From Amoebophrya sp. A120 (lineage: Eukaryota; Protista; Dinoflagellata), in the NCBI GenBank assembly GCA_905178155.1, contig CAJINV010000009.1, positions 2,333,373 through 2,397,372 of the forward strand: DNA of 64,000 nucleotides, given 5' to 3'. Both the position numbers and the translations under genes were made by a program. Shown here in pieces: positions 4,337 to 54,804 of this stretch (within the stretch, counting starts at the first letter, position 1; the number at the start of each line of letters is the position of its first letter). The notes below the pieces were generated by a model. It was not told where the DNA came from, did not search any database, and saw only the letters and a list, made by a program, of their open reading frames with translations.

Positions 4337-7300
4337 CTAGCTCGTGTCGGCCTTCCCCTTCGTTCCTTCGTCCGGAGCGCGGATGTACTCGTCGTCGGCC
4401 TTGTGCTCGGCGGTTGTGTTGTTTGCCTGACCCGCGTTCGTCCCTTCTGTTGCTGATCGTGCTGGGGGAGCGTACGACGATGCTGTAGGCTGATTTGTTG
4501 CAGTTGAAGATGCTGCGCCCGCCGCATTCAACTGGATCTGCTCGTGCTTTTCTCCGTTGCGATTTCCAGCCGGACTCCTGGCGCCGGCACGATCTGGCGC
4601 TGTCGCGCTCCCTTCAATTGAGCTGGCGGTTGCAGCCGCTGCGGAACTCGCTGCCAAGCTTGAAGTATCCACTGCGGTGCTGCTAGACGTCGACGAATTT
4701 ATCGCACCGAGGGCCGCGCCAACAGCAGACGTCGCGTCATGATCCGCGTGTCTTGCCACAGGGCTCCTGCTGCTGCTGCCGCTGGTACTATTCAACAATG
4801 TCGGGTCACGGTTCGGCAGTGTTAGGACGGTGCCACTCCGACGCGCAAGTGAGGAACTACTCGGGCCCGCATCCGTGCTACCGTCTGCGCCAAAAAGACC
4901 CGCCTTCGGACTTCGTGACGAAGATGAAGATGCGCCGCCAAACTTTTCTCCCCAGGGTGCTGCGGGGTCAAAGCCAAGGTCTCGCTTTGCCTTCGCCATA
5001 TTTGCCATAAATTCGCCAGCATTGTTCGGTGGGGGAATGCTTTCAAGAGCAGCCATCTCACCCGCTTTGGAAGATATCGGGGCAAGAAAATCGTCCATTC
5101 TTGTCGTTGGCATGCCCATTCGCCCAGACATGCCGGAAGGCGACGAGGGGGTGTACGCGGGGTCGCCGAAGGACCCGGCTGGGAACCCGCCGCTGCCCCT
5201 TTCCCCACCGCCCGCCCCTGCTAGCGGCATCAGGAGGGGCGACGATGCGCTGCTGGTGTCCTGTTGCCGCAGCAACCACTGGCAGTAGCGGCGCAGGACG
5301 GGCGCGCAGTACCGCTGCGATTCCTCGTACACCAGATGTACCGTCGCCGACGTGACCACCGTGCAGAGGCGCTCCTCGCAACGCGACTTTATGTGGTCGA
5401 TGCAGAACTCGTCGGCGGCGCGCAGCAGCCGCAGCAGGTACAGCACGTTCTCCTGACTGGTGTCCGGCTCCTCCTCGTTGTCCTTCGGGGTCAAAAACTC
5501 GCCCCCGGTGTAGATAAAGTTCAGAATGCTGCGGAACACGTCGTAGCTGATGTCGTCCGGCAACCGGATCTCGTTCTCCGTGGCCTCGCGCCAACTGTGT
5601 GAGAACATGCTGCGGAAGTGCTCGCTGAAGACGCTGAGCAGCACGCGGTGCGCGTACAGCTTCTGGTTGCGCTCGTGCGGAAACACGAAACACACGTCCG
5701 AAAACTGCGGGTTGTCAAAGTAGAGGCCCAGCTGCGAGCGCACGACCGAGGAGACCAGCGGGGAAACGTCGAGGCTGACTTCCGGCGCGGCGTCGGTGTC
5801 GAGCAGAAAAACGTGGCTATGGAAGTGTCAGAATCGAAATTGGCAAAATCGAAAAATTTGTGATGCACAAAATCGATGCCAGTTGGAGCCTCAGTTTCCA
5901 AGTGGCGCATGACATAAACAGACTGTGCTACTGCGGGCGGGACATTGTGTATCAGGTGAATTGATCAACCCGAAGACGCCGCCCCCCCGGGCCCTATGGA
6001 CATGACAAATTTCGGGAGCACCCAAATCCAGTCTATCGTACTGTTATTTGGGCAAAGAAGGCTGCTCCTGTCATGCTACTCTGGCAGCACATTGCGCACC
6101 CCTAAACAGGCTTACGATCGGCCTCATATGCCTGCTCCCCAATACAGGCCTTCAGTGCTCTACATTTTACGCATCACAAATTTTTCGATTTTGTCGATTT
6201 CGAACCTGACGCTTCCATAGTGGCCCTTCTCAAAGTAGTGCGTGCCGCACGCACCGCCGAACACGAATAACCGCCGGCCTACGGCCACGCACGCGTGGCC
6301 GGCCCGCCTCTCGGGAACGCAGGATTGCCCGGGCGTCAGCCGCAAAGTTTGCTTTTTTTTTTTGCATTTTGTTGATTAGATAGAAAACATGATGATCACC
6401 AGTCGTTTTCGTCAGGTTCTTGGAAATAATTCAGAAGGCTGAAAGAATCCTGCTGGATTTTAGAACTGTGTACAAAATCAGAACAACCGCATGAAAATCA
6501 TAATGATCCCTTATACGTACTACCTGCACTTTTCTCTTTGTGTAACAGAGCTTGGAATCCGTGGGGAAGGCCTCCATCCACGTGTTTGTTTTCGGGTCGA
6601 AAACGTGGGCGTCGTTGAAGCAGCGGGTCGTGTGTCCGCTGCCGCCGAACAGGTACAAGAGGCCGTGCACGTTGCTCAAGCTCATCCCCGCGCGCGCGAG
6701 CGGCGGCTGCCCGTTGACACGCAGGTAGGACCAGACGCGCGTGTGCACGTCTAGGCAGTGCAGGTCGTTGAGTCGCTTGCTGCCGTCCCAGCCGCCAAAG
6801 ATGAACAGCAGGTTGTTGGTGTTACCGGCGACGCAGGAGGAGTGGTTGGCCCGCGGCGGCGGCAGCTCCCCCGTGGTGGGAAAGCTGTGCCATGAACGCG
6901 ACTTCAGATCCAGCGCGTGCAAGTCGTTCAGGTACGCCCTGCCGTCCCCGCCGCGGAAGACCAACACCACCTCTTCCCCGACGACGTCGGCCGTGTGCAT
7001 GTTGCACGGCCCCGGCGGGTCCCCGCGGAACTCGGGCTGGACCCACTTGAAGGAGCGCAAATCCAGAATGTTCACGTCCCCCGCAGCTAGGGGGCCATTG
7101 CCGAGCCAGCCGCCGAGAAACAGGATCTGCGAACCCCCGGTTTTCTCGCTGGGCGGCAGCAGCGTCGCCGTGTGCCCGTTGCGGCCCGACGGCGCGAGGC
7201 CGAACGGCTCCAGCTTCCGCCACTCCGTGTCCTCGATGTGGTAGCTGTACAGCTTGTTGTGGTTCCTGGACCCGTCGTAGCCGCCGAAACAGTAAATTTC

Positions 7301-7453
7301 CGATTCGTTCACCAACGTGCAGGTGTGGTTCTTCGTCGCGGGAATGTCCTGCTCGAGGAACATGATGCTCTGCCACGTCAAATGCTGGCGATCGAACCGC
7401 TTGGCGAGCACCGGACCGCCGTCCTGGCTGTTCGCCGCCTGATCCTCCTCCAT
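4337..7453 (-). CDS. Kelch-repeat plus BTB/POZ protein (LZTR1-like architecture) with a low-complexity tail
   Basis: Six Kelch-type repeats (FGGYDG, FLGGW, FRGGDG, FGGWDG, FGGSG, FGGAC), then a BTB domain (FSDVCFVF...YAHRVLLSVFSEHFRSMF). Exons about 7453-6524, 6351-6220 and 5812-4337; the last junction is the element at 5818-6219. Start codon tentative. Confidence 0.85.
5818..6219. mobile_element. Introner/MITE family A (TATGGA ends), 402 bp
   Basis: Imperfect TIRs of about 55 bp, TATGGAAGTGTCAG...CTGACGCTTCCATA. TSD GTGGC at 5813-5817 and 6220-6224. Removing the element plus one TSD gives ...YFEKGH-VFLLDTD... in frame. Confidence 0.93.
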
Positions 7454-8750
7454 CTGCTGCGGGTTTATCAGAGACGAAAACATAGTTGTAGGATTGATGC
7501 AATTGCACTCCTCCGTAGTCGTCAAAACAAAATGTACTTGTTGAACTCTTACTTCTACTAGGTGCCGACGTCTACAAAGCGCTCAGAGAGCGCCCAGCTC
7601 AGCCTCACTAGTTCTTGTTTCATCTACCAAGGTCACGCCGTCAACAGCAGGTCACCAACAAACTGAATCATCTCGATGTTTGTAGATGAAGCAAGGTTTA
7701 CAAGTAAGCCTAAAGAAGTGTAAAGGTACAATCAGGTAAACTCTTCCTAATCCGCGAGACGAAAAGGATGTGGCTGGACGACCTTGATGACACACGACGA
7801 GAAAAACATTGCACTTTGATGGTCACTCACGTGTGGTCCGCAATTTGATCGTACTCACGTATCACGACGCGTCGAGTTTTTGTGAAACACACCCTCTTGC
7901 TCTTACCTTTTGGACCGGGATCTGAGATATATATTAATATGATACACCACAAGAATCATCGTGGTACTTACACGCTGCATACACGACGCCGAAATTAGCA
8001 GCCGAAGCCACACCGTCAACATCCTCGCGTCCGTCAGAAACGTTCTGTTGAAGCCTCAGCCTCGAGCGCAGGGCGGCAATACTTTATCTATCATGACGAA
8101 TCACAATCTTTCTCAAGTTTCACAAAACGATCAAATTTTCAAGCTCTTTGCCGCCTGGGCCTGTCTCCCTAGTATGCCGGTTGCTGCTAGCGCTAGCGTT
8201 CGATTGATAACAACGGCAACCAAAATAGTATGTAAATAGAGAGTAGCGCGAGTTTTATCGCTGGTCAGAACGGCATTCGCATTCTTTCTTTCGTACAGGG
8301 TCCCACTTAATCATTCTCATTCTTGTTTCATCTCCTTCCCGTAGCAGAAAATTGTCTCCGGGCTCACCATCACCGATCCCGAATTGACTGTGCATGCCAC
8401 TTCTCGCTCCTCCCACTGATTTCGTCATTTCATTCGTTCGTAGTTTTACAAGAACACCCGTCCAGCCCAGCGGCAATCGGCCACCTCCTGTACGTGGCTT
8501 CTACTCCGTACTGCTTGTTACACTCTGCCTCGTCACATGAAGCCGGGCCACTAGCAGTCACCACTTGTACCGCCATCCTGCACCGTTCAGCTCGAGAGTC
8601 GGGTTTTACCAGGCAAGATTGATCCGCCGCCTCCTGCTTGTATGGTGTCTGTGCGCTGCAATTTCGGAATCACAAAGGTCCCAACGACCATGATCCCCCA
8701 CGTCTCCGCGTCCGCGCGCCGAGCCCCGCTGCGAACATTTATTCGCCCCG

Positions 8751-9349
8751 TCAGAAGACCACTTCAATCACGGGCAAGCTGGTAACTGCCATCACTGCAA
8801 TGCCGCCCATGAAGAGAAACGAAGCGGATTGAAACTGCTTGGAGGAAAATGCCGCTACCAAACCGTTGATCATTCCCGGCTCCGCACGTCGGGAGTCCTC
8901 GCTGTTGAAACTGGCAATGAAATATCAAATGCAAAAATGAAAATGTCTGGGTCTGGAAGAGTGCATCTTTGTCATGCTTGTCTCGCATGACTCTCAAATC
9001 TGTCATGCACGTTACCCAAGAGCCCCACTTTTCTGTCATGCAGAAACGCAGTCTATCATGCAGAGTAGGCAACACCTAGAAGCTCAGAAACTTGCCATGC
9101 TGAGCCAGCGCTTGTGGCCTCCTCATGATACGCCACCCAGCATCACAAGTTTCCAGACCCAGACATTTTTGCATTTGATATGAAACACAAGAAGCCAATG
9201 AATATCAACGCCATCCCGAGCAGAATCAAATAGGCCATCCGCCCCGACCGAAGAAAGTCCAAAATTTCCGTTCGCAACTTGGCCAAATACGCCAAAATGG
9301 CGAATATGGCATTGCGCGCGGCCGCGCCGAGACCACCGCCCCGAGCCAT
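8751..9349 (-). CDS. Small membrane protein with two hydrophobic segments, interrupted by an introner
   Basis: MARGGG...LILLGMALIFIGFLCF continues in frame as IASFNSEDSRRAEPG...FLFMGGIAVMAVTSLPVIEVVF* after removing 8923-9180 plus one TSD. Confidence 0.7.
8923..9180. mobile_element. Introner/MITE family B (TATCAAATG..ATGTCTGGGTCTGGAA ends), 258 bp
   Basis: TIRs tatcaaatgcaaaaatg..atgtctgggtctggaa and ttccagacccagacatttttgcatttgata. TSD TGAAA at 8918-8922 and 9181-9185. Confidence 0.93.
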
Positions 9350-10344
9350 ATTTCGTTACTGAAGAGAAATGCTAATGCTTCAAAGCCAACTACAAGAAGC
9401 TACCTCTCTACTCGAAATCGTGGTGGCTTTTGCGTTCTATGGAAATACGGTGATGAACCAAGACAATCAGAATGTTTATGTTGCTCGGCGACGCCGACGG
9501 AACGATACAGCCTCAATTTGAATTTGTTAGTATATCACGGATGGCTTGAGTGCAAATACAAGTTGTTTTCGCTTCCACTTGTCGGGACTCTCACTCTCTC
9601 GCAAAATTTCACTATTTCAATGAATTGGGACCACAGCACTCGACATGGATATGCGCCCCCGCCCCTCTTTCTTGTCGTTGCTCATGTCATCGAGCTTAAT
9701 CGCGGCAATCACGACAGAGAACAATAAGTATCCTCCTGACATACACGAAACTTAGTAACACAAGAAGGTATTTCTTTTTCCATAGCACGAATTTAAGAAT
9801 TCTCAAGAAGAGAATTAATTTTGCCAAGCAAAGCTACATCAAAGTTCAAAAGCTCTCTGTCTACTACGGAGTTGGCTGCCCAATGTCAGCCCTTCTCCGG
9901 TTCGTTGCGTCTTTTTCCCAGATTGGCATTCGGTATTGCTATTCTCATTGTCATTGTGTCGATTCTGAAAGTAAGTCAATGAAACAGAAACAAAGTGAGT
10001 CAAGGTTCTCTACTGCAGGTTAAGAAGGTTTTTCAAGGTTTGTTGCGAGAAACGATTCAAAGCTCTTTGATTTCATAGCAGGTGGCTACTGATGCTTTTG
10101 CCCAATCTTCCGTGTGCGTGGTTTTTGCCGGGCCTAAGTAACATTTACTTTTGCATTGTTGAATTCGGAGGTTGAGAGTTCCGTTGTTTTCTCTAATACT
10201 TTTACTTTCTCGGGCAAAATGCCTGACAAGATCATGGTCTTGCTTTCGTTTTTATAAATATGTTTTTTGTAATTGGGTGCTCAGAGGTCATCCATGGTGC
10301 ATTTGAAACCAGCATTAATTCTGTTGAGGTAAATGTTTAGCGGT

Positions 10345-11304
10345 TCATTTGATACTCCCCGGCGCGGTAGGGACATCCAGGTAGTTCTGTTTGGTAAAGA
10401 ATCGGTCCTGGAGCGACTTACCGCCCGAAAAGTCGAAGGAGTTAGGATACTTGCCCGAGGGTACCACGCTGCCAGCCGCGGGTTGCGCGCGCACCGTCTC
10501 CAGCGTGTCCGTGAAGTCGATCTCTTCTTTTTGCCTTCGCCGCCCCATCAACTGTCGTCTGTTCAGTGGTTTAGGTTTGCTTTGATGTACGAGACGATAT
10601 CATGGTGTTGTAATGGAGAAAATCAGTGAAAGAGGAACCTGAGAAGTAAGGGGCACGAAACCTACTTCAATCTTTGCCATTAGGCTTAGCATAGGGATAG
10701 CGATATGCATACATTGATCTTGATGAAGAAGAAAAATGCACTTTCACCGTGCTACCTTTGGTAGGCTTTTGACTTAACCCAGGATGGCCTCTGGTCAAGC
10801 GGGTACCACATTTCCACATTATCCTGCAGACTTTCGTCCCAGAACATGTCTGTTTCATTCCGGACGTTTACCTGATTTCGGTTCCGATATTCTTCATCTT
10901 CAAACTAAGTAATTCGACGTAAAAGCATCCAGAATCACACTTCCGTCTCTAGGCGGGACGACCAGTGGGTTCGGGTGTGTACAAACAAAAATGAGATCGC
11001 AGTAGGCAGACCACACTTCCAAAAGATCAGTACTTCTTACCCTAGGTTCGAATAATTCTGCATTGTGTTCGAAGCAGCCAGCCAGATCTCGATGACTGCG
11101 AAAGCAGAGCGGTATTCTTCGTTTGGTGAACTCCACCTCTTTCTTTTCGTGCACTCGCAGTTCACCCGTGAGGCCAAGCGGTACCGGATGTCGGAGGTTG
11201 TTTGCCGAGACCGAATGAGACAGATCGTTTTTCTGTCGCAGAAACTCACTACCCGAAACGGATGCCCCCGTCGGCTGGTGGCTGCGGGTCCTTGGACCGA
11301 ACAT
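10345..11304 (-). CDS. Probable exons of a hypothetical protein; structure unresolved
   Basis: GC-richer open segments 10345-10551 and about 10980-11304, separated by AT-richer intron-like sequence; no domain recognised. Confidence 0.3.
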
Positions 11305-25000: not shown

Positions 25001-27525
25001 CAGAGCGTCACACCGCGGACAGCTCGTCCCACAGCTGTTGCAGTCTGCGTCGAGGTCTCCCTGCATGAAGAACAAGTTTTCGTAGCTCATCTGGTCGCTC
25101 AGGTAGGTTTCCTTCTTGCCCTGGCCAAACTTGTCCACGACGCTGTCCCCCACCCGCACCAAGTAGCTCCCGATCAGCACCGGCGGCTGCGCCATCGTAA
25201 ACATGCTGCGCTCGTCGATCTCCGTTAACAGAACGCCGTGGCCGTTGCACCGCGGGTCCAGGTCGTAGATCGCGGGCGACCCGAACGCAATGCGGGCTTC
25301 CAGCGACGGGATGCGCACCTGGAACCGTGCGGGGACCTCCACGTACCCCGGGTCGTCTTTGGGCAGGCTGCTGATCTCCTGGTTGTGGTCGTACAGCCCG
25401 AGGTTTTGCAACACACGCCAGTAGGGGATCACGTAGTTCACGTTCTCCGCCCCGCCCGTCGCCTTGGCGAAGTTAATCCCAACGATATTGAGAGGAAAAA
25501 TCTCCCCTCCCCATATTGAAAAGGTATGTTTCCAAAAATTTGCGTTGCGCATTTGAGGTCACAAATCACATCTGTCTTGCAAGAAGACAAGGGCAGAAGC
25601 TTCCGCCCCATTATGAAGGCGATTTGTCATGCTGTTGGGCCCAAAGGGGGGACGTTTGCCATGCTGAAATACTAGACCCATACGCCCCTACCTAGCCCGG
25701 GGATCTGACCGCAATGCTTTCCTGCAATACAAATCTGATTTGTGTACTCAGATCCAGCATCAGAAGTTTCGTTTTGATATGGGGAGGGGGGATTTTTCCT
25801 TTTGATAAACGACCTTCTTCTCGCGCTCCAGCAACAAAGGACCGCCGCTGTTCCCCGGCGATATGGAAGCGTCAGGTTTGAAATCGTCAAAGTTGAAATA
25901 GTTTGTCATGCATAAAACGGATACCAGTTAGACCTACAGTTTGTAGTCGGTGCATGACAAGTTTTCCTGGCCTCTGAAGCAAGTCTGTCATGCGGTTTCG
26001 GGCAAGATGGCTGCTCCCTGTCATGCTAGTCAGCAGCCCAATGCTTGACCCTTACCAGCACTCGAATCTGCCTCCCTTGCGCCTTCAGCAATAGAGTCAG
26101 TCTCTGTGTCGCATTTTATGCATGACAAATCACTTCAACTTTGTCGATTTCAACTCTGACACATCCATAGGCGAGATCGGCGCCGTAGACTGGATACAGA
26201 TGTTTCCGTCCACCTCCTGGTTCCCCGCGATTTCGCCGCCCGAGAGCGTGGGCAGGTTCTGGCCCAAGGGGAATCCGACCGCCAGGACTTTCTCGCCCAT
26301 CGGCGGTGTCTTCGACACAAACTGCAGCGGGATCACCTCGATGCTGCCCTCGTCGAGCGCCTGTTTATTTATTGATTTCGTTGCGTGACCTGAGCCTGAC
26401 GCAAATCGTTGCGAGAAGAAACGCCGAGGCGTTCAGTTGTTGTATGTTCGTTGCTACGGTGGGACAAAATGAAAATTTTGCACACTCATACATAAATACT
26501 CGTCCACGTAAAAACAAAGGGACTGGCCATGGATAACTATCTCTCACATATGAGTATTGTTTGAACACAATGTTGACAAATACAAACTACTATACCGCCT
26601 TGAACTTCTCCGGCTTCTCGAACCGCAGCAACGCGATGTCAAACTGCGTGCAGATTTGCACGGTTTTTGCCGGGAAACTCTCCGACGAGAGCACCAAGAG
26701 CTGGAGTTCCACTTTCAGGGCGTTCGATACCACGTGCGCGTTCGTAATGATCAAGGGATCAAACGTATCGGACGCAAGGTTGGTCCGCACCAGAAAGCCG
26801 GAACCGAGGGACACCCCGCTCTCCGGCGGCTTCGAGGGCTGCAAGAAATCGTTCTGTGGAGACACCGACTTGATCCGGAAAACGGAATACTTCAATTCGT
26901 CGTTGTCAAAGCCAAACGTGTTGGCGTCCTGGGCGTGGCTGGTCCCCTGGTGCAGCAGTTTGACATCGGATTTTTGCTCCTGCTGCTGCTCGTCTGCGGA
27001 CGCAGATGAATCCTCATCAAACTGCAGCTCGGACTCGGGCGGCCCGGGACCAAGCAGGCTCCGCTTCCCCGCGACATGCTGTCGTGTCTCTCCCTGGATC
27101 AGTTTTCGCGCGATCGCGTCGCCGGTCGACCGGTGAATGGCGGCGTTCGTGTCGGCCCAGGAGTCATTCCGCGAATTGTCCAGAACCAGCTCGGAAATAT
27201 TTTTCGTGTCCTCTTGTTGTTGGCTGCTTGTTACGCTTTCTTCGGTGGAGGTCCGAATTTGAAGAAATAGCGTTGTTGTGGTGGGCAGCTGTTGGTCCAG
27301 TTTTTCCTCCGTGTCTTGGTCATCAGAGACAAAGGGAAGTTCCTCCTGTGGGAACAAGGATGTTGTCACGCCGTGACTCTCGGGCGCGGTTGTGCTTTGC
27401 AGCTCGAGGCGATTGGCATTCTGGGGAGGTCGGGGAGGGGGTCCGGAGAAGGCCAATATCGCCTCCGCAGACCATACTGCCGCCGAGAACGACCACGGCA
27501 CTCCTCCTCGAGCCGTCCTCACCAT
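22096..27525 (-). CDS. Secreted HtrA/Deg-like trypsin-fold serine protease with a long repetitive C-terminal extension, multi-exon
   Basis: Catalytic triad motifs GSGFLV..ITNAHVV, FDIALL and TAPISPGNSGGP (the last is rebuilt only after removing 25862-26169), plus AVGFPLG and VVGINFA. Joining the 3' exons (about 24660-24260, 24160-23830, 23699-22096) to the same gene is inference. Confidence 0.8.
25486..25807. mobile_element. Introner/MITE family C, 322 bp
   Basis: tattgagaggaaaaatctcccctccccatatt ... gatatggggaggggggatttttccttttgata. TSD AACGA at 25481-25485 and 25808-25812. Removal gives EKKVV-GINFAK. Confidence 0.93.
25862..26169. mobile_element. Introner/MITE family A, 308 bp
   Basis: tatggaagcgtcaggtttgaaatcg ... 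cgatttcaactctgacacatccata. TSD GGCGA at 25857-25861 and 26170-26174. Removal gives TAPISP-GNSGGP. Confidence 0.94.
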
Positions 27526-33690: not shown

Positions 33691-35678
33691 GGGTCTCGAA
33701 AGATAAAATATTAAGTTTTCTCTGTTGATATCAATTGATATCAAATGATATCAAAAGATATCACAGAGAAAGTTGAAAGCAAAACAGAGAAAAGTGTAAA
33801 CAAGAAACAGAAACATAAACAGAATGAGAAGAAACAAAAACAAACATAAGCAAAAACATAAAGGATACACATATAAAAACAAACAGAAATGGCTGCTTGC
33901 GCATCACAAACTGCCATTTCTGCACAGAAATACCTGTCGCGGCCTCTGAGTTTTCTCTGTGGCGAGAGGAGTTTTCTCTGTGATACAGAGAAAACTTCCC
34001 TCCCACAGAGAAAAGTCGACCTTTGCCGAGGGCCGGCATTTCTACTGGAAATCAGAGTAGAAACGCCAGGAGGTCTGGAATTCCTACCGAAAATCCAAGA
34101 AGAAGTGCCAGCCTGGCGGAAATCCAGGTAGAAAAAATGCCAGGAGGCCCCCCCCTGGCATTCCTACCGAAAGACCAGGTAGGTAGAAACGCCAGGAGGG
34201 CTGGCAATTCTACTGGAAATCAAGCTAGAAGCGCAAGCGCCATGGCATTCGTGCCAGAGATCGAAGATCCCTACAGGAAATTTAAGTAGAAATGCCAGCA
34301 GGCCTGGCATTCCTACAGGAAATCGAAGCAGAAATACCAGGAGGTCTGGCATTCCTACAGGGAATCCAGGCAGAAATACCACCTCAGCCGGCATTTCTAC
34401 TGGGAATCAAGGCAGAAATGCAAGGCCCAGCATTTCTACTGAGAGAGAATCAAGGTAGGCAGAAAGGCCCGAGCCGGCATCCTCGCCCGGAATCCAGGTA
34501 GAAATGCCTCGGCCGGCATTAGGGTACCCGCATCGCGCGCGCAGCGCGCGCGAAGAATTATTTCGCATGGCCTACGGCGACACAGGCAGCCGCTTTTGCT
34601 TCCTTTGAAGGGCGTGGGTGGGAGCGCGCATGGACATGGGACATGCGCGACAACGCAAATTGCTTCTAATCCTGGAAAGGATTAGACAGGCGCGCGGCGC
34701 GCGCCGGCAAAATTGCAAAACCCAACAGGAGCTCGAAGGAGAAACACTGTACCGGGCCCGGCATTCTTGAAAAGCTCCGCCCTAGCACAAACGGGCCTGC
34801 CCTACCCCTAAGCAACCAGAAACCATATTAACTCGCGCGCGCAGCGCGCGCGGAGTTTTTTCTCGGCTTCCGGCTCCGAATCCGGTTCCCAGACAGTTTT
34901 TGCCGTCCGCCACTTCCCGGGCGGGGCCGTAGCAACAAAAAGCGCGCGAACCTAAAAAAACTTTTGCAACCCAGACGAGAACGAGAAGCGCCCCAAATGG
35001 GAATCCGGGGGGCTTTTTCGTGTTTGATTTTTCTATCGGCAAGAAAAGCCAAGGCGGGGCGGGTAGGCCGGCCCGGCGGACGGAGGGCGGGCCCCAGCAG
35101 AAAAAGTTACCCGCCGAAACCGCGCGCGAAGCGCGCGGACTAATTTTTTCGGCCAATAGCGGCGATGTCCCGGCCCTGCACGCAGGACACACGCAGCCCG
35201 CCAGGAATTTGCGCACGCGCGGGCCTGCGCGCTCGCTGCCACACGCCAGCACGGCGCGCGCCCCCAATAGCCTGAAGGCGCCGCCGCGCGCTTTTGTGGT
35301 TGCACACCCCGGCGAAGCCTAGCGGCCCTGTGGATGCACGTGCGCCGCCTCGGCCAACCCTTCCACAGCACCACACGGACTAGCTTCATTCAAAGGCGTG
35401 AAGGAACTCCGCGCCTACGTATTGAAGCCGCAAAGCAGCCACGGATGCCGCTCGGCGCGGAGTTTTTCCAAAAACAATAAAACGCACGCCGGCCGACCGC
35501 GCGAGGGTAGGCGTGCAGAAGCTGCGCCAGTGTCTCGCGTGCAGGTTAGTTCTGCGACCATGTTCACCGCGGGAAGTTTTCTCTGCACGACGGAAGTTTT
35601 TTATGTGTTGCGAAGTTTTCTCTGTGCGGGTTGGACTTTTCTCTGTCGGTTGATTTTTTATTTTTTTTTTCTAGACCC
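33691..35678. mobile_element. Non-coding 1988-bp TIR element with a 6-bp TSD
   Basis: Ends GGGTCTCGAAAGATAAAATA and TATTTTTTTTTTCTAGACCC. TSD GTCAGG at 33685-33690 and 35679-35684. Subterminal TTTTCTCTG/CAGAGAAA motifs at both ends, an internal GGCATT(T/C)CTAC/GTAGAAATGCC array at about 34030-34520, and a GCGCGC-rich core. Confidence 0.75.
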
Positions 35679-43305: not shown

Positions 43306-43628
43306 TATCAAAGTGAAAAATCCCCCCTCCCCACATCGAAAAGGTATGTTTCTGAAAATTTGTGTTGCTGATTTGAGGTCACAAATCACGTCTGTCTTGC
43401 AAGAAGACAGGCGCAGAGGCTTCCGCACCATTATGGACGCGATTTGGCATGCTGTTGCGCCTAGGGGGCACCCGTTTGCAATGCTAAGCAACTAGACCTA
43501 TACGCCCCTACCTAGGCCGAGGATCTGGCTGCGATGCCTTACTGCAAGACAAATCCGATTTGTGTACCCAAATCCTGCATCACAGATTTCCATTTCGATA
43601 TGGGGAAGGGGGATTTTTCCTTTTGATA
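43306..43628. mobile_element. Introner/MITE family C, 323 bp, in non-coding sequence (probable UTR)
   Basis: tatcaaagtgaaaaatcccccctccccacatcg ... cgatatggggaagggggatttttccttttgata. TSD GCACT at 43301-43305 and 43629-43633. Interior is clearly similar to 25486-25807. Confidence 0.92.
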
Positions 43629-43698
43629 GCACTTGCACTACACTTTCCGGCTCTCCAGGCAACGCCTTTACGTATTTTGTCAAACTGCCTCTCTAGCT

Positions 43699-45279: not shown

Positions 45280-45909
45280 CTTCACTGTAGTACTGGACTA
45301 CTTGTTTGATGGTTTTGATTTTTGCTATAGGCGTCGCTCTACTTTGATATGCCACCGTGCTTTTTTGGTCCACCTCCACGACAGGCTGGCTCTCAGAAAA
45401 CAAGCAGCGCAAAGATGTTTACTTTAGGTGGCGACTGGCGTTGCCTCTTACTCAATCCCTCGATAGACAGACGCGGGCTCACATCTTTTCGCGAACTGGC
45501 ACCGTTTGGAAAAGCGACGAAACTCGGGTACTTACTAGTAACCGCGGTTCGCGTTGGTAAACGTGCCATACCGGTGCAAGAACAAGCAAAGATGAAAGTC
45601 ATCTCACATAAGCACTAAGAGGCTCGCGAGACCACTTTTTGATCTTGATAGTTTTATTTCAGCGAATAAATGATCTGCAAAAATACGTCGAAACAGAATT
45701 CTGTCCTTCTTGCTGAGTTTCTATCGGGCCCGTGTGCTGAATAATGAAGGTTCATTTCAAACAAAAAGCTCAGAAAACGCATTTCCCTCTGTATCATCTT
45801 CTTTGACTGTCTTTATTACAAGGGGAAGAGTCGTGAGGTGTTAGTTTGTTCTTGGAAAATCCAAATTCTTCCGATCATTGTAAGTAGTTGCAGTTCTGCA
45901 AAAACGCTG

Positions 45910-46713: not shown

Positions 46714-48049
46714 CTTGAGACAAGTACAACAGCGAGTAACAAGAACAACTGGAATTCGCGGCGCACTATGATTTTTATCCTCGAGATGGTCGTGGTTCTG
46801 TGATTACACGAGAAGTCGGATGAAGCTTTAGCTTTGGGATCAAAATTACGCCGTAGGTTTGCCAAGCGACTGCTCACTCTACAGATACAGATACAGAAAT
46901 TTCTTTCGCAGGGTGTGGTGGTCGGCGGTGGCCTCTTATCATGTGGCTCGATAGAACGGGGCAGGGAACGACGCAACGCTTTGCACCACGGGCACACGAA
47001 TCTGGGCAATCTTTGTTTGTCCAATCTCTAGAAATTTCTTTGTTTGTCCTACCTGCAACGAATTCTCGAGCCTATCCCCTCGACCACACAACACAAGCAT
47101 CACGACCACGACGTCTAAGTATGCGCTCGGTCGATGACGCTGAATGCAGATGAAACAGAGGAAGAAAAAACTCATGTAAAACCGTTTTCACACGAGGAGT
47201 CGCTTTCTCTCCTTCTTTGTCCACGAAAACGAAATCAGGTAGTTAGCTCTCTATTCGCGGTTCTTTCGACAATATATGCCTCCGTGTCCTAATTGCCCAT
47301 GAATTCATTGAAGAGCTTGTAGTAACTAACTGTCAGCACTGTGTGCTTTTCTGTTTTATTTTTCTTTTTTCTTGCGCATTTGCCATCTATGTTCATGTCC
47401 ATGAAAAATACACGGTAGCTTTGTTCAGTCAATGTCACTTGGTGACCAATAAATTCGTGACAAATCCTTCAAAATTTGACTGCTGGCCTCCTATTCCCAG
47501 TGTACATTCAGTCGTAAAAAGTAGCGTAGGGCAGATTCATTTTTTCAAAAACAATGCAAGAAACGACTTTGGAGGCCGCGACGGTCATTGTTGTTGATTC
47601 TGTAAATTCTTTGAATTTTTATCTGAAACTACTTAGCGAACCTGTGCAAGAAGAGTGAAAAAACTGATTCCCGAAACTTGGAACTGCTATCGCCATTGAG
47701 TCTAGTATTTGGTTTGAGTAAAAAGCTGTTCTTTTTCTGACTATAATTGGTTCAGTAATTTCCGTTGTTTGTTGAAGTTGTAACGAGTAAATTGACTTGT
47801 TCTTGTTGCAAAGTGTAGTATAGAAAGTAAAGTAGTTGTAAATCATAATTGCACAAAGCGTTGTGACTTTTTCAGTTTTAAATATTGGTAGTGATTTGGA
47901 CCAACTTTTTATCGGCCAAGAAAATCGAAAAAAAATCCGGTGGCGCGGCGAAACTGTAGAGGCCAGAGCCAACCAACCTAAGGGGGGCGATTCCCGATTC
48001 CCGAATTTTGCATTGCTCAAAATCGATTGTGCATTCCCGCAGACGCGGA

Positions 48050-48690
48050 TTGCACAAAATCGATTTTGCATGATTGCACGAAACCGAATCCCGCAAAATC
48101 GATTTTGCATTGCACAAAATCGATTTTGCATTGCACAAAATCGATTTTGCGTTGCACAAAACCGAAGCCCGATTTTGCATTGCACAAAATCGATTTTGCA
48201 TTGCACAAAACCGAATGCCGCAAAATCGATCTTGCATTGCACAAAATCGATTTTGCATTGCACAAAACCGAATGCCGCAAAATCGATCTTGCATTGCACA
48301 AAATCGATTTTGCATTGGACAAGATCGATTTTGCATTGCACAAAACCTAGTCCCGATTTTGCATTGCACAAAATAGATTTTGCATTCCCTCAGACGCGGA
48401 TTGCACAAAATCGATTTTGCATATGCACAAAACCGAATCCCGCAAAATCGATTTAGCATTGCACAAAATCGATTTTGCATTGCACAAAATCGATTTTGCA
48501 TTGCACAAAACCACATCACGGCTTTGCATTGCACAAAACCGAATCCCGCAAAATCGACTTTGCATTCCACAAAATCGATTTTGCATCGCACAGAACGCAG
48601 ATTGCACAAAATCGAATCACGGAGGCGCGGATTGCACAAAACCCCTCCTCCAGACGCGCAATCCCGCAGATTGCACAAAATCGATTTTCC
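48050..48690. repeat. 21-bp minisatellite TTGCACAAAATCGATTTTGCA
   Basis: Tandem and variant copies containing the palindrome AAAATCGATTTT; the same palindrome is dispersed across the whole 47885-50960 element. Confidence 0.92.
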
Positions 48691-49267
48691 ATTCCCCCAG
48701 AACGCAGCGCCGACCAAAAGGTCGGCTTTGTGCTGGCCACAGGTTCGCCGTTGTGGGTCGCGCAATCGCTGTCGAAGGCCACACAATCGCCCGACCACAC
48801 AAAATCGATTTCGCAGCTTCCCAGGTCCGACCGAATCGAGCGGCTGCGTGGCTCAATATCGAGGCGGCGCGCCACGCAATCCGCCGGGCCGACGGACTAG
48901 GGGGGAGAGCTTCCATCCCGCTATGCGCCTTAGCGGATCTCCCACAAAATCGATTTTGTGCGTCCGCCCTTTCTTCGCGGATGCAGTCTCCCACGCCAAT
49001 GCCTTACCAACCCCCGTCCCAGCCCGCGCCCTATGAGGTACGGGCAACGAGCCCTACCGGCCACAAAATCGATTCTGCAGCCCCTCAACCCTATGGACAA
49101 CGTCGGCACCTTGCCGGACATTCGATTTTCCGAAGAGATCTGGACTTCCGGAAAGATCTCGGGAGATCGCTGCGGTCCGGATTTTCCGACTTCCGGAAAA
49201 TAAAGCTTCCTAGAAAATAGCAGAAAATCGATGTCGTGCCTCCATTACTATTCAATAGTAGCGAGAT

Positions 49268-49677
49268 CGGACCAAACCTGGTCCATACCATCGGCGGAGG
49301 CAGTTGCTTACTATCCAGTTGGTAATCTGCTGCCAAAAATCCAAAAAAAATCCGAAGGCAGTCGCACTCGAGGTGTCGCACACAAAAATACGATTTGTTT
49401 TGTGTTGCGTCCCGAGCAAAATAGTAATTACTATTGAATAGTAACCAACTGCCTCCGCCCATGGTATGGACCAGGTTTGGTCCGTCTTCGTTACTATTGA
49501 ATAGTAACTCCTGCGCACTTTTGGCGCACACTTGGGCGCACTTTTGGCACACAGAAAATCGACTTTGGTGCGCCTCCGAATCTCTTGAAAATGCAAGCGC
49601 TCGGATTTTTGGCAGCAGATTACCAACTGGATAGTAAGCAACTGCCTCCGCCGATGGTATGGACCAGGTTTGGTCCG
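49268..49677. repeat. Perfect 75-bp inverted repeat (49268-49342 and 49603-49677) with a third partial copy at about 49448-49484
   Basis: CGGACCAAACCTGGTCCATACCATCGGCGGAGGCAGTTGCTTACTATCCAGTTGGTAATCTGCTGCCAAAAATCC and its reverse complement. Confidence 0.9.
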
Positions 49678-51264
49678 TTCTCCGTAGCAATGAAGCAGAA
49701 AAGCGATTTTCCGCCTCGGTTTTCGATTTCGAGGACTTGCTGATGTCCCGATCTCGATTTTCGATTTCGGAAAATTCCGGATTTTTCGCAAACTCCGGAT
49801 TTTTTAGAATTTCCGGAATTTCCGGAACCCGGAAAATCGATTTTTCGGCAGTCCCGGAAAGTCCAACGCGCGGACTTCCGGAACACTTGAACCTCTGGAT
49901 TTTCAGGAAGTTGGAAAATCGATTTTGCCAAGCAGCCGGACTGCCACCTACCTTGCCCACATAGCAGGCCCACCACCTCTTGTGCCCGCGCCACCACTCA
50001 CGCAGACACCGCACAAGGAGCGGGCCAGCAAAATCGATTTTGCGCGCCTCGGGTGATTGAACCCACAGACAATTCTGCGAGCCTGAAGTGACTAAAGTCC
50101 CCGACTCTGCGCCCCAAGCGCCCAGCGGCTGTCGAGGACTGAGCCGCGGCACCCACCGAGGGCTGCCTTGTTCACAAAATCGATTTTGCGACCCCCGCGC
50201 CAGCCGAGAGCCTGTTCCTGGCGCCTCTACGGAGCTCAGAACACGCAGACGGGGCCCATGCCACTCCCGCGGCTTTTCAGAACTAGGGCCCGGATGTAAA
50301 TCCACAATCTCGGGAATTCTCATTGGTTTTTACGCTGGGCCAACACGGTGAATGCGCGGAACTTCATCGGGGCGCAAGTTCTGGAATTCGCGATCATCCC
50401 TGAGCCTGTAGCGTGCGACCGAAACATCGATCCAAGGCGGGCAGAGGCCCGTCCTCTGCGACTTCGCCCCACGCAATCAATTTTGCAGCTTTTGCCGGAT
50501 TTTCCGGCATTTGTGTTGGTAAAATCGATTTGCGACCACGCGCGGATTGTGTGGCCCCGCCCGAGGATAGGGCATCTTTGAGAAGCGTACCGGAAGGGTG
50601 CGCACAAAATCGAATCTGTCCGCGAGTACTCACAAAAGCGATTTTGTGAGCACCGCCCGCCGGGCGGAATATGACAACCCGGCGTCCCCAACCCGGCTGC
50701 GGGAATCTTTCTGACAGCCCGGATGCTCCAGGGTGGGGCCTAACGCCTGAGGACACCGGCAAAAACTGCCGCGAGACCGAGTTGGCGCATTCTCGAGCTT
50801 CGAGAACGCGGGCAACCGACTTCGTTTCGCGCTACTTTGCTTCGCTTGTGGACGTTAGCAGCCGCAGCACAAAGTCGATTTTTTGCGGCGTGCCTGGATT
50901 TTTTGCGGATTTTTTTCCGATTTTCTTAACATTTTTGAAGTCGGTCCAAATCAGTACTAATAAATAGCCAGGCTTACTGCGACATTTTTTGTGCGACATT
51001 TTTTGCACTTCTGCTTTCTTTCACGGCTAACTCGGGTCGCTCAGGCTCACCCATAATTTTTATAGGGCGTCATGGTCTTTATTCTCACTGAACTGTTCCT
51101 CTTAGTGTACTTTTTTTCGGCTGCTTGTGCATCGCCTTCCCCACATCATCGAAGTAAAATTTCACCGGCACCTCCTTCCCTTGTTTTTTTTCGCTTTTTC
51201 AAGAAGCCTGCTGCTGATCTTTGTTTACTCTCCCCATTTCCGCAATTCGTGCTCAACACCTGCT

Positions 51265-53666
51265 TTAGGACGAAGCAGCATGGCCGCCCCCGGTCTCGGT
51301 GGACGACGATTTCGCCGGCTTGGGCACGCCGGCCGGAGAGGCACTCGACGACGCGGCAGTCTGGATGGTGGACACCACCGCCTTTTCGCTCTCCCCCGTG
51401 GCAGCTGGTTCTGGCTTCTTCTCCCCCTCGTCTGCCTTCGCAGCCTCCGTTTCCTTGCCACTATCCACCACATGCGAGGCGGGGACCACCGGCAACTGCA
51501 CGTCCTCCTTCTTTACGGCAGTCTGCTCCGGGGTTTTCTTTTTCTTGTACATGCCGATTTCCGTGGTGGCCCACGGCTTCAAGTAGCCGCCCGCGTCTTC
51601 CGCCTTCTCGAGCAGGTCTTTTACCTCCTCCTCCGATTCCGTACCCACGGTGGCCGCCGCGTCCTCCTGCAGCGCCGCATAGGCCGCGTCACTTGGGTAA
51701 TCGTCCTCGGTCATTCCCTCCTCCAACAGGAGCGGCGTGCCGGTGGCGTTACCCGACGCGTTACCCGCGGGTGCCGCCGTGGTGGGAGCGGCCGTGGCAG
51801 CCGCCGTCGTGGCGGCGGCTGTTGCGGCGGCCGTCGTTGGGGCGGCGGTGGTCGCGATTGTGGTCGTGGTGACGGTCGTGGTGGTGGTCGTTGTAGTGGT
51901 AGTAGTCGTGGTAGTGGTGGTTGTGGTGGTGGTCGTAGTAGTTGTGGAGGTGGTGGTCGAAGTAGTTGTGGTGGTCGAAGAGCCGCTGGCAGCCGCCAAG
52001 ATCGGACTCTGGGTCACACAGTCGGGATCGTTGCACACCTGGCATGTTGTAGTTGTGGACGAGAGCTTCCAGGCAACAAAGCTGTCGGCAGGGGATCCGG
52101 CCGTTCCCGCTCATTGCACCAAAAATTTCATATTACATTCATCCCTAGAGAGCAATGGACTCCTTTGTACTTCTTTTTTAGATCGTGTTGTATGCACAAG
52201 AAGAGAAAGAGTTTTACATGATGGCTAAACATCATTTTTTCATCTTCTACAGAAACAATCAAGCTTACGCCGTCTGGTTGGTTGTTTGCCTGCATGTTCA
52301 TAGCCGAGGTGACGTTGTTGACGATTTGCTGTGTGATAGCGGCGGGGTCCACCGTGGTTGCCGGAGGTGGTGCGTCGGTAGTTGCGGGCGGTGCGGCGGT
52401 GTATCAAATGTAAAAATGTCTGGCTCTGGAAGAATTCATGTTTGTCATGCTTGTCTGGCATGACTCTTAAATCTGTCATGCCCGTTACCCAAGAGCTCCG
52501 TTTTTCTGTGATGCAGTAGTAGTAGTAGTAGTAACCATTTGACTCCTGGCGGGTTGGCGTTAGAACAGATTTAGCCTCTGCCAATACCTGGGCGTTAGAA
52601 CAGATTTAGCCTCTGCCAATACCCCTAGGTGGATACCCGATCCACTTCCTAACTATCACCCGACCGCAACCGCAGAACCGCTATCGATTTCTTACGCGCA
52701 TGTGCGGTCAGTGGGCGCTATGTGTGGCAGAACCCCCTTACCATCCAAGCCCGCGAGCAAGGTGGAAATTCGGTGTGGCCTTGACGGGTTAGTCTTACAA
52801 ACTTGCTCGCGAGCTTACTTCTGTGGCCGGTTGTGCGCTAGTACGTAAACAGCGGGTCTATCGATCACGCCCGATGATCCTAACACGATGACGGGCAACC
52901 CCGAAGCGTACCCCTTTCAAGCACTTCAGCCGACCTTAGTCCGCGCACCTTTTTCGTGCGTTTGTCATGCAGAATAGAAGAAGTGCAGTTTGTCATGCAG
53001 AAGCGCGTCACTTTTTCGATGCAGAAGTGCAGTTTGTCATGCAGAATAGGAAACACCTAGGAGCTCAGAAACTTGTCATGCTGAGCCAGCATTTGTAGCC
53101 TCATCATGAGACGCCACCCAGCATCACAAGTTTCCAGACCCAGACATTTTTACATTTGATACGGTGGTGGTGTTGGCCATTTTCGCAATGGTGAGAATCT
53201 CGGTAATGGTGGCGGAAACCTTTTCGGCGATGGCCTCCGGTGGCCCGCTGTAACTCGCAATGTCCTGCAGTTTGTCCACCACGGCCATGCGCGTCATATC
53301 GTCCATGTTTCCAAACGCACCGGCCTGCACGGCGGCGGCAGCCGCCCCCGCGATGGTCTTCATCGTGGATGCCATGGACTGGGCCACCGCGTTCTGGGTC
53401 GCATTCGGATTGCTCGAGGCGGCAATGCCCTTGGCAATCTCCGATCCCAACCAGTCCTGCACAATCTCGAGGTCTGACTTACCGGCGTACGGATCCGGAA
53501 ACCCTTGCGAACTCCCGGTCACGGCCAGAGGATCCTAGTAGTATTTATGCCATGCATGGGTTGTCCAGCAGAAAAACATCAAGAAAAGCACCATCGTCGA
53601 GGTGACAGAATCGTTTATGACTGCGAGCAGGACTAAGCAGTACAAACAAGAAAGCAAGAGCGACAT
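51265..53666 (-). CDS. Secreted mucin-like Thr-rich protein, multi-exon
   Basis: Signal-like start MSLLLSCLYCLVLLAV. Removing 52402-53161 plus one TSD gives ANTTT-AAPPATTDAPP in frame. The last exon has a short Cys motif and a poly-Thr tract at about 51860-51980. Confidence 0.7.
52402..53161. mobile_element. Introner/MITE family B enlarged to 760 bp by a nested insertion
   Basis: tatcaaatgtaaaaatgtctggctctggaa ... ttccagacccagacatttttacatttgata. TSD CGGTG at 52397-52401 and 53162-53166. Both arms align by eye with 8923-9180. Confidence 0.92.
52517..52960 (-). mobile_element. Nested insertion of about 440 bp with a (TAC)n tail; possible 3' fragment of a non-LTR retroelement or SINE
   Basis: Absent from the sister copy at 8923-9180. 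(TAG)5 tract at 52517-52533, a 33-bp direct repeat at 52556-52588/52591-52623 and a 15-bp stem at 52747-52761/52802-52816. Confidence 0.55.
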
Positions 53667-54015
53667 ATTTCGCTAGTTCTTGTGAAGCTCCTCCTGTCAT
53701 CTCTATACCTGTTTAGTCGCCTTGCGCTTGGTATTCATCAGACTACTGTGGGTCTTTTTGCCTTGCGAGACAGCCTTTTGTGCGAGCTGATGCAGAGTAA
53801 GCAAGTGGAAGTTGGCCTTTGTCGTTTCGTCTGCATCCTTCTGTAGAGTTTTTGTAGTTTTGCTACCTTCTTACGTATGTAATCTCGTTCCTGATTTCAC
53901 TTGGGAAAACAAAAACTGAAGACGATAAAATTGCGAAGAGCGAGCGGTGAGGAGCCGAATAAATTCTTGCGGGCCACGATGATTTCAAAAAGCATCAAGA
54001 CAAAGCAGAGGAGAA

Positions 54016-54804
54016 TCACATCAGACAATCTTCTACCGGTGGTGGCCCTGCTGCCTGCAGCTCGATCGTCGCCTGTGACTCGAGCAACGAGAGATCATGG
54101 TCGTTGAGGTCGAGGTATGCATTGCAAATATGTCTGTGTCTGGAAGGATGTGAACTTGTGATGCGCATTTCACAACACACACAAATCTCTCATGCATAGG
54201 CAGTAAAAGGTGCCCACTTCCTGTCACTAAAAAGAGGGATTTGTAATGCGAGTTGGGCATTGCGGATGGTTCTCGATATCTGTGATGCTAGGGCTTCCAC
54301 GACAGACCTTTTGCGTCATGCAAAAACAGCATGACAAAAATCTGCACTCTTCCAGACCCAGACATATTTGCATTTGATACGAGGGCATCAAGCTGTGAAG
54401 ACGCAGCGTTATCGGACGACTCCGCTGGTTGTTGAGCCCCTGGCGTCAGCAGGAATGCTGTCGTGTATTTATTGTGTGTTTTTTCGACATCTGTCACGTT
54501 TTCTAGCTACGACCTCTTTGAGTAGTTATTTATGCCCGTCTTTCATTAATTTTGTTCTCGCTTGCGCTTTCTATCAATCTTCGTAGGCAGTGGTCGTATC
54601 CTCGGTGGTTTCTTTATGCGTCATGGAAACCTCCAGATGAAAACCGTTTAATATCTCTATGTGAATCAAGAAAACTAGGATGGTAGTTGCTGTACATGTT
54701 TCTATTGACTCCTTTCCATTGTCGATTCGGAGAGCTTCGGCTGTGTGTGCGGAGGACAGCGAGCAACCGAGCAGCACCCGCCTGAGCATTACTGCTTGCG
54801 GCAT
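54016..54804 (-). CDS. Small putative secreted protein interrupted by an introner
   Basis: Signal-like start MPQAVMLRRVLLGCSL. Removing 54116-54379 plus one TSD gives SSQLDAL-DLNDHDLSLLESQATIELQ...CLM*. The 5' exon junctions are unresolved. Confidence 0.5.
54116..54379. mobile_element. Introner/MITE family B, 264 bp
   Basis: tatgcattgcaaatatgtctgtgtctggaag ... cttccagacccagacatatttgcatttgata. TSD CGAGG at 54111-54115 and 54380-54384. Confidence 0.92.

What the first reader, a model, noticed from the sequence alone, without database searches (positions are those of the whole stretch)
5813..54384. Nine TAT...ATA elements with exact 5-bp TSDs act as introns that cannot be GT-AG
Seen: three sequence families (A: 5818, 25862; B: 8923, 20295, 52402, 54116; C: 18607, 25486, 43306) share TAT/ATA termini and 5-bp TSDs of unrelated sequence. 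In all eight coding cases, deleting the element plus exactly one TSD restores the frame. Sliding the junction through the TSD never gives GT and AG together, and at 8923 (sense TSD TTTCA) it gives neither. The same genes also carry ordinary GT-AG introns. Known from memory: inverted-repeat introners and many non-canonical introns are described in Amoebophrya, with mechanism unresolved. Inference: one transposase system plus a precise, splice-site-independent RNA excision pathway coexisting with the spliceosome.
Basis: partly seen in the sequence, partly recalled or inferred. Interest (0 to 1): 0.8.

Follow-up and report, generated by a model that had tools for sequence, protein, structure and literature searches.

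The report
Known Amoebophrya transposon introns, precisely removed
These are nine small transposon-like insertions in genes of the algal parasite Amoebophrya, a published class, and where RNA could be checked they are cut out exactly, together with one copy of their 5-base flanking repeat and without the usual GT-AG signals, likely by an altered spliceosome guided by their predicted hairpin.

Summary
All nine TAT...ATA elements have exact 5-bp duplications. A window gene matches a protein named Amoebophrya sp. A120 at 100%. Spliced RNA contigs lose element+5 nt at 4 sites by listed joints, 1 by adjacent contig pieces and 1 by length count. DNA-like contigs run from flank into element at the two sites laid. 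Farhat 2021 describes A120 introners starting with TAT, with 5-bp direct repeats; Gozashti 2025 lists '5-bp TSD, TA/TA termini'. Added here, from 314 relatives in another assembly: either orientation occurs (33:31, 16:18). GT-AG is at chance level (9 of 177 sense, 10 antisense), and 50 of 177 offer neither GT nor AG. Insertion phase is skewed (104/56/49). The first T at the sense 5' end is invariant (0 of 212, against 6 of 212 at the mirror base; post hoc, p about 0.03). That hints at a donor-like N|UA read by a relaxed spliceosome, so 'splice-site-independent pathway' is not established. No transposase was found. Novelty: already known; mechanism open.

The parts
5818..6219 (.). Family A introner, 402 bp; TSD GTGGC at 5813-5817 and 6220-6224; in a kelch-BTB gene on the minus strand
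   Evidence: Pfam; the deposited A120 protein P0001 joins across it and aligns without a gap to six homologs including A25; not covered by an RNA lay
8923..9180 (.). Family B introner, 258 bp; TSD TGAAA (sense TTTCA); no GT or AG in any sense register; in an orphan 111-aa ORF
18607..18927 (.). Family C introner, 321 bp; TSD AGAAC; coiled-coil gene on the minus strand
   Evidence: RNA joint 18601-18928 skips 326 = 321+5
20295..20556 (.). Family B introner, 262 bp; TSD CTTTT; inverted relative to 8923 and 54116; same gene as 18607
   Evidence: RNA joint 20289-20557 skips 267 = 262+5
25486..25807 (.). Family C introner, 322 bp; TSD AACGA; trypsin-like protease gene on the minus strand
   Evidence: RNA joint skips 327 = 322+5
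25862..26169 (.). Family A introner, 308 bp; TSD GGCGA; splits the protease motif APISPGNSGGP; neither GT nor AG in any sense register
   Evidence: RNA joint skips 313 = 308+5
43306..43628 (.). Family C introner, 323 bp; TSD GCACT; downstream of the stop of a cox1 C-terminal fragment, likely 3' UTR or intergenic
   Evidence: excision not tested
52402..53161 (.). Family B introner, 760 bp; TSD CGGTG; carries a nested insert
   Evidence: RNA contigs of X1 and X2 run from 53162 to 52396 with no letters between, 765 = 760+5 (table 8)
52517..52984 (.). Nested mid-repetitive insert of about 470 bp with a (TAG)n end, probably retro-element derived; removed with its host intron; edges approximate
   Evidence: (tables 2, 5, 5c)
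54116..54379 (.). Family B introner, 264 bp; TSD CGAGG; GT..AG possible only on the antisense (plus) strand; same gene as 52402
   Evidence: unlisted contig letters number 74 (X2) and 152 = 78+74 (X1), equal to the exon lengths after element+5 removal

Best explanation
These are the published Amoebophrya A120 introner elements: short TAT...ATA inverted-repeat elements with 5-bp target duplications, likely copied into genes by a DDE-type transposase encoded elsewhere, and removed from RNA as the element plus five bases, likely by a relaxed U2-type spliceosome guided by the predicted hairpin. Shown: the anatomy, exact removal at six sites, retention in DNA-like contigs at two sites, both orientations, and no GT or AG requirement. 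Inferred insertion: a 5-bp staggered cut by an integrase-like transposase (IS3EU/GingerRoot- or Ginger2-like ends), probably binding the repeated TGT(C/G)ATGC motif. Inferred excision: the inner stem (TIR positions 9-13) would bring the ends together. The 5' cut would fall one base into the upstream TSD, giving N|UA as a G-less version of this organism's GUA donor. The 3' cut would be set by distance, four bases past the terminal ATA, not by an AG. One TSD's worth of sequence is then lost whatever the target sequence, which restores the pre-insertion mRNA.
For: Identity; published TAT-starting inverted repeats with 3-5 nt direct repeats, a 5-bp example and 'Ginger; 5-bp TSD, TA/TA Termini' for A120 family 38. 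Exact removal. In relatives, +5 removal gives coding-like frames on both sides in 182 of 314, against 26-35 for +3, +4, +6 and +7. Donor mimicry: 11 of 11 RNA-verified canonical introns start GTA and 5 of 11 GTAT. In 212 coding relatives found without requiring TAT, the first T at the sense 5' end deviates 0 times against 6 for the mirror base at the 3' end, while core T positions vary about 2% at both ends. Under this register the commonest class (104 of 209) becomes phase 0, and a symmetric target-sequence model does not absorb that skew. A25 non-canonical introns are listed as TT-NN with IR motif TTA-R-R..G. A120 keeps 83 of 89 spliceosomal proteins and U2, U4, U5 and U6; only U1 snRNA was undetected. 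A spliceosome adapted to TIR/TSD introns has a precedent in Fritillaria. The inner stem is predicted in all nine, whereas pairing of the terminal TAT is weak or absent in three exactly spliced copies.
Against: No lariat, branch point or cut register was observed; the TSD hides the register. The polarity signal is small and post hoc: p = 0.03 for position 1, 0.02-0.07 for positions 1 and 2 pooled. One ambiguous case (L001) may be a 5' deviation, and position 3 runs the other way (5 against 2). G at donor +1 and AG at the acceptor show no enrichment at all (55 and 20 of 177, equal to background), which is extreme for spliceosomal chemistry. A long stem covering the intron's 3' end would hide a branch point. 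Orientation independence fits a symmetric nuclease equally well. No transposase was found in the window ORFs tested or in 90 long ORFs of the relatives, and Farhat 2021 found none in A120. Strands in the relatives come from my codon classifier, not from RNA; its top call was wrong for 1 of 9 window elements.
Confidence: 0.5

Rival explanations
1. Same elements, but removed by a spliceosome-independent, structure-guided nuclease plus ligase that recognises the hairpin and cuts at a fixed distance from it, as suggested for euglenid nonconventional introns.
For: No dinucleotide selection in any register (9 of 177 GT-AG against 10.9 expected; 50 of 177 with neither against 51 expected). Both orientations are used. 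Hairpins are 5-16 SD more stable than shuffles. Euglenid introns with TIRs and TSD-like repeats are released as circles by unknown machinery. U1 snRNA was not detected in A120.
Against: The 5'-specific conservation of the first T and the match to the local GTA donor suggest spliceosome-like reading. Terminal pairing varies among exactly spliced copies. No such enzyme has been identified.
Confidence: 0.33
2. The apparent excision is a reverse-transcriptase template switch between the 5-nt direct repeats across the hairpin (a 'falsitron').
For: Direct repeats flanking a stable hairpin is the known recipe (paper listing; details recalled). All RNA evidence here is presumably cDNA-derived contigs; no direct RNA reads were available.
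Against: Every element has stops in all six frames and they interrupt conserved domains whose orthologs are continuous. In the relatives they occur at 312 per 539 kb in pattern-selected loci, mostly in intact coding frames, so real removal is needed for protein. The main contig of each transcript carries the joined form. About 16% of relatives tolerate a mismatch in the repeat (47 of 297).
Confidence: 0.05
3. The elements are skipped during transcription: RNA polymerase slips from one TSD to the other across a DNA hairpin.
For: This would explain the need for TIR plus TSD, the orientation independence and the lack of splice dinucleotides.
Against: TSD mismatches are tolerated at all five positions (8, 7, 5, 6 and 6 of 32). 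RNA-run contigs containing element sequence exist, though DNA carry-over is not excluded. No precedent is known to me.
Confidence: 0.05
4. The elements are excised precisely from DNA in expressing cells, like ciliate internal eliminated sequences.
For: Loss of the element plus one TSD is the ciliate footprint (recalled). A tyrosine recombinase gene lies in the window.
Against: DNA-like run X8 has contigs running from flank into the element ends at 52402 and 54116 at depth 22-35, and none of the 15 joints shown is an excision. 172 joints were not shown and contigs drop rare variants, so a minority allele is not excluded.
Confidence: 0.04

Closest known systems
Amoebophrya A120 introner elements (Farhat et al. 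2021, PMC7789003)
   Same: Same organism; IR starting TAT, seven variable bases, then A-run; 3-5 nt direct repeats, 5 bp in the Fig. S19 legend; about 240-nt non-canonical introns; coexistence with GT-AG introns; no internal transposase.
   Different: No difference in kind. In the sections I read, the paper treats repeat length and splice position as variable. Here the TSD is uniformly 5 bp, TIRs reach 30-57 bp, and families share an internal motif.
A120 introner family 38 and other 'TIR DNA' families (Gozashti et al. 2025, PMC12130899, supplement file 8)
   Same: Annotated '5-bp TSD, TA/TA Termini', Ginger-like; many families of 250-320 bp with TIRs and about half non-canonical ends.
   Different: Family 38 is about 810 bp with integrase-like homology. 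The nine elements here are 258-760 bp with no such ORF found. I saw 40 of the 58 A120 rows and did not map families A, B and C to them.
IS3EU/GingerRoot, IS481EU and Ginger2 DNA transposons (PMC10045372)
   Same: IS3EU/GingerRoot have TA..TA termini; IS481EU has TNT..AYA; Ginger2 makes 4-5 bp TSDs.
   Different: IS3EU/GingerRoot TSDs are usually 6 bp and IS481EU's about 4, 15 or 25 bp. No transposase is available here to place the elements.
Euglenid nonconventional introns (PMC11282704, PMC12501133)
   Same: No GT-AG, paired ends, short direct repeats, coexistence with conventional introns, unknown machinery.
   Different: Those carry CAG/CTG near the ends and are excised as circles. These have TAT/ATA, a fixed 5-bp TSD and recent high-copy families.
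Fritillaria borealis non-canonical introns (PMC11282704, PMC13326754)
   Same: MITE-derived TIR/TSD introns removed by a modified U2 spliceosome.
   Different: Fritillaria keeps preferred ends (AG-AC, AG-AT) and duplicated U2AF. Here no junction dinucleotide preference is detectable.

Membership tests
Amoebophrya A120 introner elements | Located in the A120 genome | tested here: met
   Two window ORFs match proteins named Amoebophrya sp. A120 at 100%
Amoebophrya A120 introner elements | IR starting TAT, seven variable bases, then three or more A | tested here: met
   Met for families B and C; family A has TCAG at positions 11-14 instead of the A-run. A is 86-94% at positions 11-14 in 297 relatives
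Amoebophrya A120 introner elements | 3-5 nt direct repeat at the boundaries | tested here: met
   9 of 9 have an exact 5-bp repeat
Amoebophrya A120 introner elements | Removed from RNA with non-GT-AG ends | tested here: met
Amoebophrya A120 introner elements | Repeated in the genome | tested here: met
   69-138 X8 contigs leave the element at the exact TAT or ATA boundary into other flanks
MITE / non-autonomous TIR DNA transposon | Short, TIRs, fixed-length TSD, no coding capacity | tested here: met
MITE / non-autonomous TIR DNA transposon | Autonomous partner with the same ends and a transposase | tested here: inconclusive
   None in the window or in 539 kb of relatives; whole genome not held
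IS3EU/GingerRoot | TA..TA termini | tested here: met
IS3EU/GingerRoot | TSD usually 6 bp | tested here: not met
   250 exact 5-bp and 0 exact 6-bp among 441 nearest pairs
IS3EU/GingerRoot | DDE transposase of that clade | not testable with these tools
   No transposase sequence was found to test
Canonical U2 intron | GT/GC...AG ends | tested here: not met
   0 of 9 on the sense strand; chance level in 177 relatives
Spliceosomal intron, relaxed ends | Lariat with branch adenosine; dependence on U2/U6 | not testable with these tools
   Only assembled contigs cover these genes; raw-read runs X11-X13 laid 2, 2 and 0 reads
Euglenid-type nonconventional intron | CAG/CTG near the ends | tested here: not met
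   Consensus is TAT(C/G)AA.TG.AAAA
Euglenid-type nonconventional intron | Excision as a full-length circle | not testable with these tools
   No raw reads from this organism were laid

The most novel reading that the evidence does not exclude
Amoebophrya A120 has a second, sequence-blind RNA excision machine that recognises one transposon system's hairpin and shared motif, counts five bases, and restores the pre-insertion mRNA at any target in either orientation. It would make an entire DNA-transposon system harmless inside exons and provide a portable, scarless intron that needs no splice sites.
Probability: 0.3. Interest if true: 0.85.

Novelty: already known. Interest (0 to 1): 0.3.

Why it matters
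The elements and their non-canonical removal are published, so this window is not a discovery. The open question is what removes tens of thousands of introns that have no GT or AG. This analysis narrows it: the TSD is a fixed 5 bp, removal is exactly element+5, orientation and junction sequence do not matter, and the 5' end may be read as a G-less donor. It also points to a direct test. About one copy in six has mismatched TSDs, and existing RNA-seq at those copies would reveal the cut position. That would test the donor-mimic register and help separate a relaxed spliceosome from a new nuclease-ligase pathway.

Tried and rejected
No whole genome is held for the window, so a genome-wide transposase search was not possible. 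The metagenome records behind the loci are not held for extension. Raw-read RNA runs X11-X13 laid 2, 2 and 0 reads, and X5 laid 1 contig, so they gave no test. Two pattern scans of viral contigs found nothing. Pfam showed no transposase or integrase in 90 long ORFs of the relatives or in the 30 window-derived proteins scanned. The two long TSD-flanked pairs in the relatives (1031 and 972 bp) looked like adjacent or nested elements by eye. A fixed element orientation, suggested by the first alignments, was rejected. A polarity of TATC against TATG ends was not significant (40 against 25, p = 0.08). TSD mismatches were synonymous in 19 of 32, above free mutation (0.295, p = 6e-4), but against one-copy-free models p ranged from 0.005 to 0.35, so a variable cut register is not supported. 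Mismatch positions were flat on the sense strand and gave no register. Target-site sequence preference explained only part of the phase skew. Rfam found nothing in the window. The Atlas gave no usable hit for ORF 57221-57937. Two look-ups of earlier findings returned nothing.
Full report
Observation. A scan for TAT...ATA inverted pairs listed 18 pairs. Lengths are 258-402 bp, plus one of 760 bp with a nested insert. Alignments support three families. Every element has stop codons in all six frames. Removing element+5 nt gives the continuous frame on the minus strand, though this test cannot tell +5 from +2 or +8. On the minus strand no register gives GT..AG, and 8923 and 25862 give neither GT nor AG.

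Organism. The BTB exon at 4340-5812 matches a protein labelled Amoebophrya sp. A120 at 100%, with an A25 homolog at 52%. Across the 5818 junction the A120 protein aligns without a gap to all six homologs, which fixes +5 there. The deposited model at 8923 also joins as element+5, but it is an orphan with no other hit. These models probably derive from the same assembly and its RNA, so they are not independent support.

RNA and DNA. Run X1 is labelled 'RNA?', but its contigs skip 11 ordinary GT-AG introns, so it holds spliced RNA. Of the five elements in the first stretch laid, four have listed joints skipping 326, 267, 327 and 313 nt, each element+5. The fifth (8923) is not among the 15 joints shown (3 hidden), but a contig piece stops at 8916 with 235 letters beyond, as that joint would require. 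In the second stretch, X1 and X2 contigs pass from 53162 to 52396 with nothing between (765 = 760+5). At 54116 the unlisted letters number 74 and 152, equal to the exons expected after element+5 removal. That transcript's introns at 53841-54036 and 54458-54695 read GT..AG on the minus strand. Elements 5818 and 43306 were not covered by a lay. The DNA-like run X8 has contigs that run from flank into the element ends at depth 22-35, and no excision joint among the 15 shown (172 hidden). It also has 69-138 contigs leaving the element at the exact TAT or ATA boundary into other flanks, so copies are many and share this boundary. X1 and X2 are one sample. The raw-read runs did not hold this organism in the stretch laid.

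Relatives. A family B end pattern returned 146 loci (538,968 bases) from one other assembly, prefix JACKZZ01; about 500 stretches hold it and 150 were returned. The window's elements match copies there at 84-96%. Of 441 nearest TAT..ATA pairs, many spurious, 250 have an exact 5-bp TSD, 48 match at 4 of 5, and none has exactly 6. The sample is biased toward family B. A codon classifier assigned a coding strand to 209 of 314 elements. On the window its top call was right for 8 of 9, and right for all 6 that passed the thresholds. Removing +5 gave coding-like frames on both sides in 182 of 314, against 26-35 for +3, +4, +6 and +7. Among 177 with an exact TSD, a GT-AG register exists in 9 on the sense strand and 10 on the antisense, with 10.9 expected. 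50 have neither GT nor AG, with 51 expected. Families insert in both orientations relative to the gene: 33:31, 16:18, 12:6, 5:10 and 8:6. None of this was checked against RNA from that assembly.

Mobilisation (inferred). All families share TAT ends, an A-run or similar block at positions 11-15, and a 5-bp TSD. The motif TGT(C/G)ATGC occurs 32 times in 3,220 bp of the nine elements and 4 times in the other 60,780 bp. It usually faces inward 34-55 nt from an end and in family B recurs at 31-33 nt spacing. In the relatives, 336 of 594 ends carry it within about 80 nt. This looks like a shared transposase-binding site and supports one mobilising system, but binding is untested. TA..TA ends resemble IS3EU/GingerRoot, whose TSD is usually 6 bp; 4-5 bp TSDs are typical of Ginger2 (passages of PMC10045372). 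I therefore do not file these under either group. No transposase was found.

Excision (inferred). All nine fold into hairpins 5-16 SD below shuffles. The inner stem is near-certain, while the terminal TAT pairs with probability 0-0.3 in 25486, 54116 and 20295, all exactly spliced. Local canonical donors are GTA in 11 of 11 and acceptors CAG in 10 of 11, so N|TAT is the donor without its G. To test whether the ends are read directionally, I collected 312 elements without requiring TAT; 20 have a changed end. In the 212 coding ones, positions 1-3 deviate 0, 1 and 5 times at the sense 5' end and 6, 1 and 2 times at the 3' end, while core positions vary about 2% at both ends. Manual review kept the six, left one case ambiguous and possibly 5' (L001), and gave 1 or 2 against 9 for positions 1 and 2 pooled (p = 0.02-0.07). 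This is a post hoc hint, not a result. Insertion phase is skewed, 104/56/49 (p = 3e-6), and remains so after a symmetric target-sequence model (p about 1e-4). With the cut one base into the upstream TSD the common class is phase 0, but a cut four bases in gives the same, and a longer-range target preference is not excluded. On balance I put a relaxed spliceosome at 0.5 and a separate nuclease-ligase at 0.33. The complete lack of G or AG selection is the strongest point against my choice.

What is in print. From PMC7789003 I read the abstract, sections 10, 11, 12 and 16, passages, and supplement part 3 of 5 plus passages. It reports A120 introners whose inverted repeats start with TAT, direct repeats of 3-5 nt, a 5-bp example, 29,850 members, no U1 snRNA detected, 83 of 89 spliceosomal proteins present, and no transposase in A120. 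From PMC12130899 I read passages and 40 of 58 A120 rows of supplement file 8; files 13 and 14 were not searched. It lists family 38 as Ginger-like with '5-bp TSD, TA/TA Termini'. PMC11282704 (section 6 and passages) reviews Amoebophrya, Fritillaria and euglenid cases. PMC12501133 (section 5 and passages), PMC13326754 (passages) and PMC12005148 (passages) give the comparisons. PMC8240250 was seen only as a search listing. Roy et al. 2023 appeared only in reference lists and was not read; figures were not visible. I did not see orientation independence, the shared motif, the phase skew or the 5' polarity in what I read or in searches. Unread supplements and papers outside the library may hold them.

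Verdict. The feature is real and RNA-supported, and it is a member of a described class: already known. Interest is 0.3, for sharpening an open mechanism and for showing that copies with mismatched TSDs can reveal the cut site.

Noticed in passing
window:47883-50962: A 3,080-bp region bounded by TAT...ATA and a 57-bp inverted repeat (79%), without an exact 5-bp TSD (TTAAA / AATAG). It holds a 21-bp tandem array built on AAAATCGATTTT whose unit contains TGCATTGCA, also seen in some family B ends, plus internal inverted repeats. No transposase hit in 7 ORFs tested; one faint sub-threshold zinc-finger hit. Possibly a larger non-autonomous relative.
   Followed up: partly
window:61261-62127 (+): Intact-looking tyrosine recombinase ORF (Pfam Phage_integrase, E 1.8e-9) with five homologs at 52-57%, three from a eukaryotic protein set, amid several short unannotated ORFs at 57-63 kb and a 92-bp inverted repeat at 63439-63623. 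It may be a Crypton-like or virus-like mobile element.
   Followed up: partly
window:43699-43881 (-): C-terminal fragment of cytochrome oxidase subunit 1 (Pfam COX1, E 1.2e-7, below the curated cut-off) in nuclear sequence; nuclear cox1 fragments are reported for A120.
   Followed up: partly
window:52517-52984: Nested mid-repetitive insert with a (TAG)n end inside the 52402 introner. The enlarged 760-bp element is still removed exactly, so loop length is not critical.
   Followed up: partly
window:33759-35620: Another repeat-rich region with terminal CAGAGAAAA motifs, 42-bp internal repeats and a possible GTTTT duplication at 33976-35595; not TAT-ended; no Pfam hit in 3 ORFs.
   Followed up: partly
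L060:5322-5601: A TAT...ATA element with a 29-of-30 inverted repeat flanked by an exact 8-bp duplication rather than 5 bp; removal of element+8 would keep the same frame as +5. Single case.
   Followed up: no
window:25813-25861 and X8 contigs: Exons between neighbouring introners can be very short: 49 nt here after splicing, and 32-39 letters between two family B ends in other genomic copies (table 5c).
   Followed up: no
window:53534-53707: An RNA-supported intron in the same gene that is not a TAT...ATA element; as cut at the contig pieces it reads TA...GG on the sense strand, and a one-base slide gives GT...AG, so it is probably canonical.
   Followed up: partly
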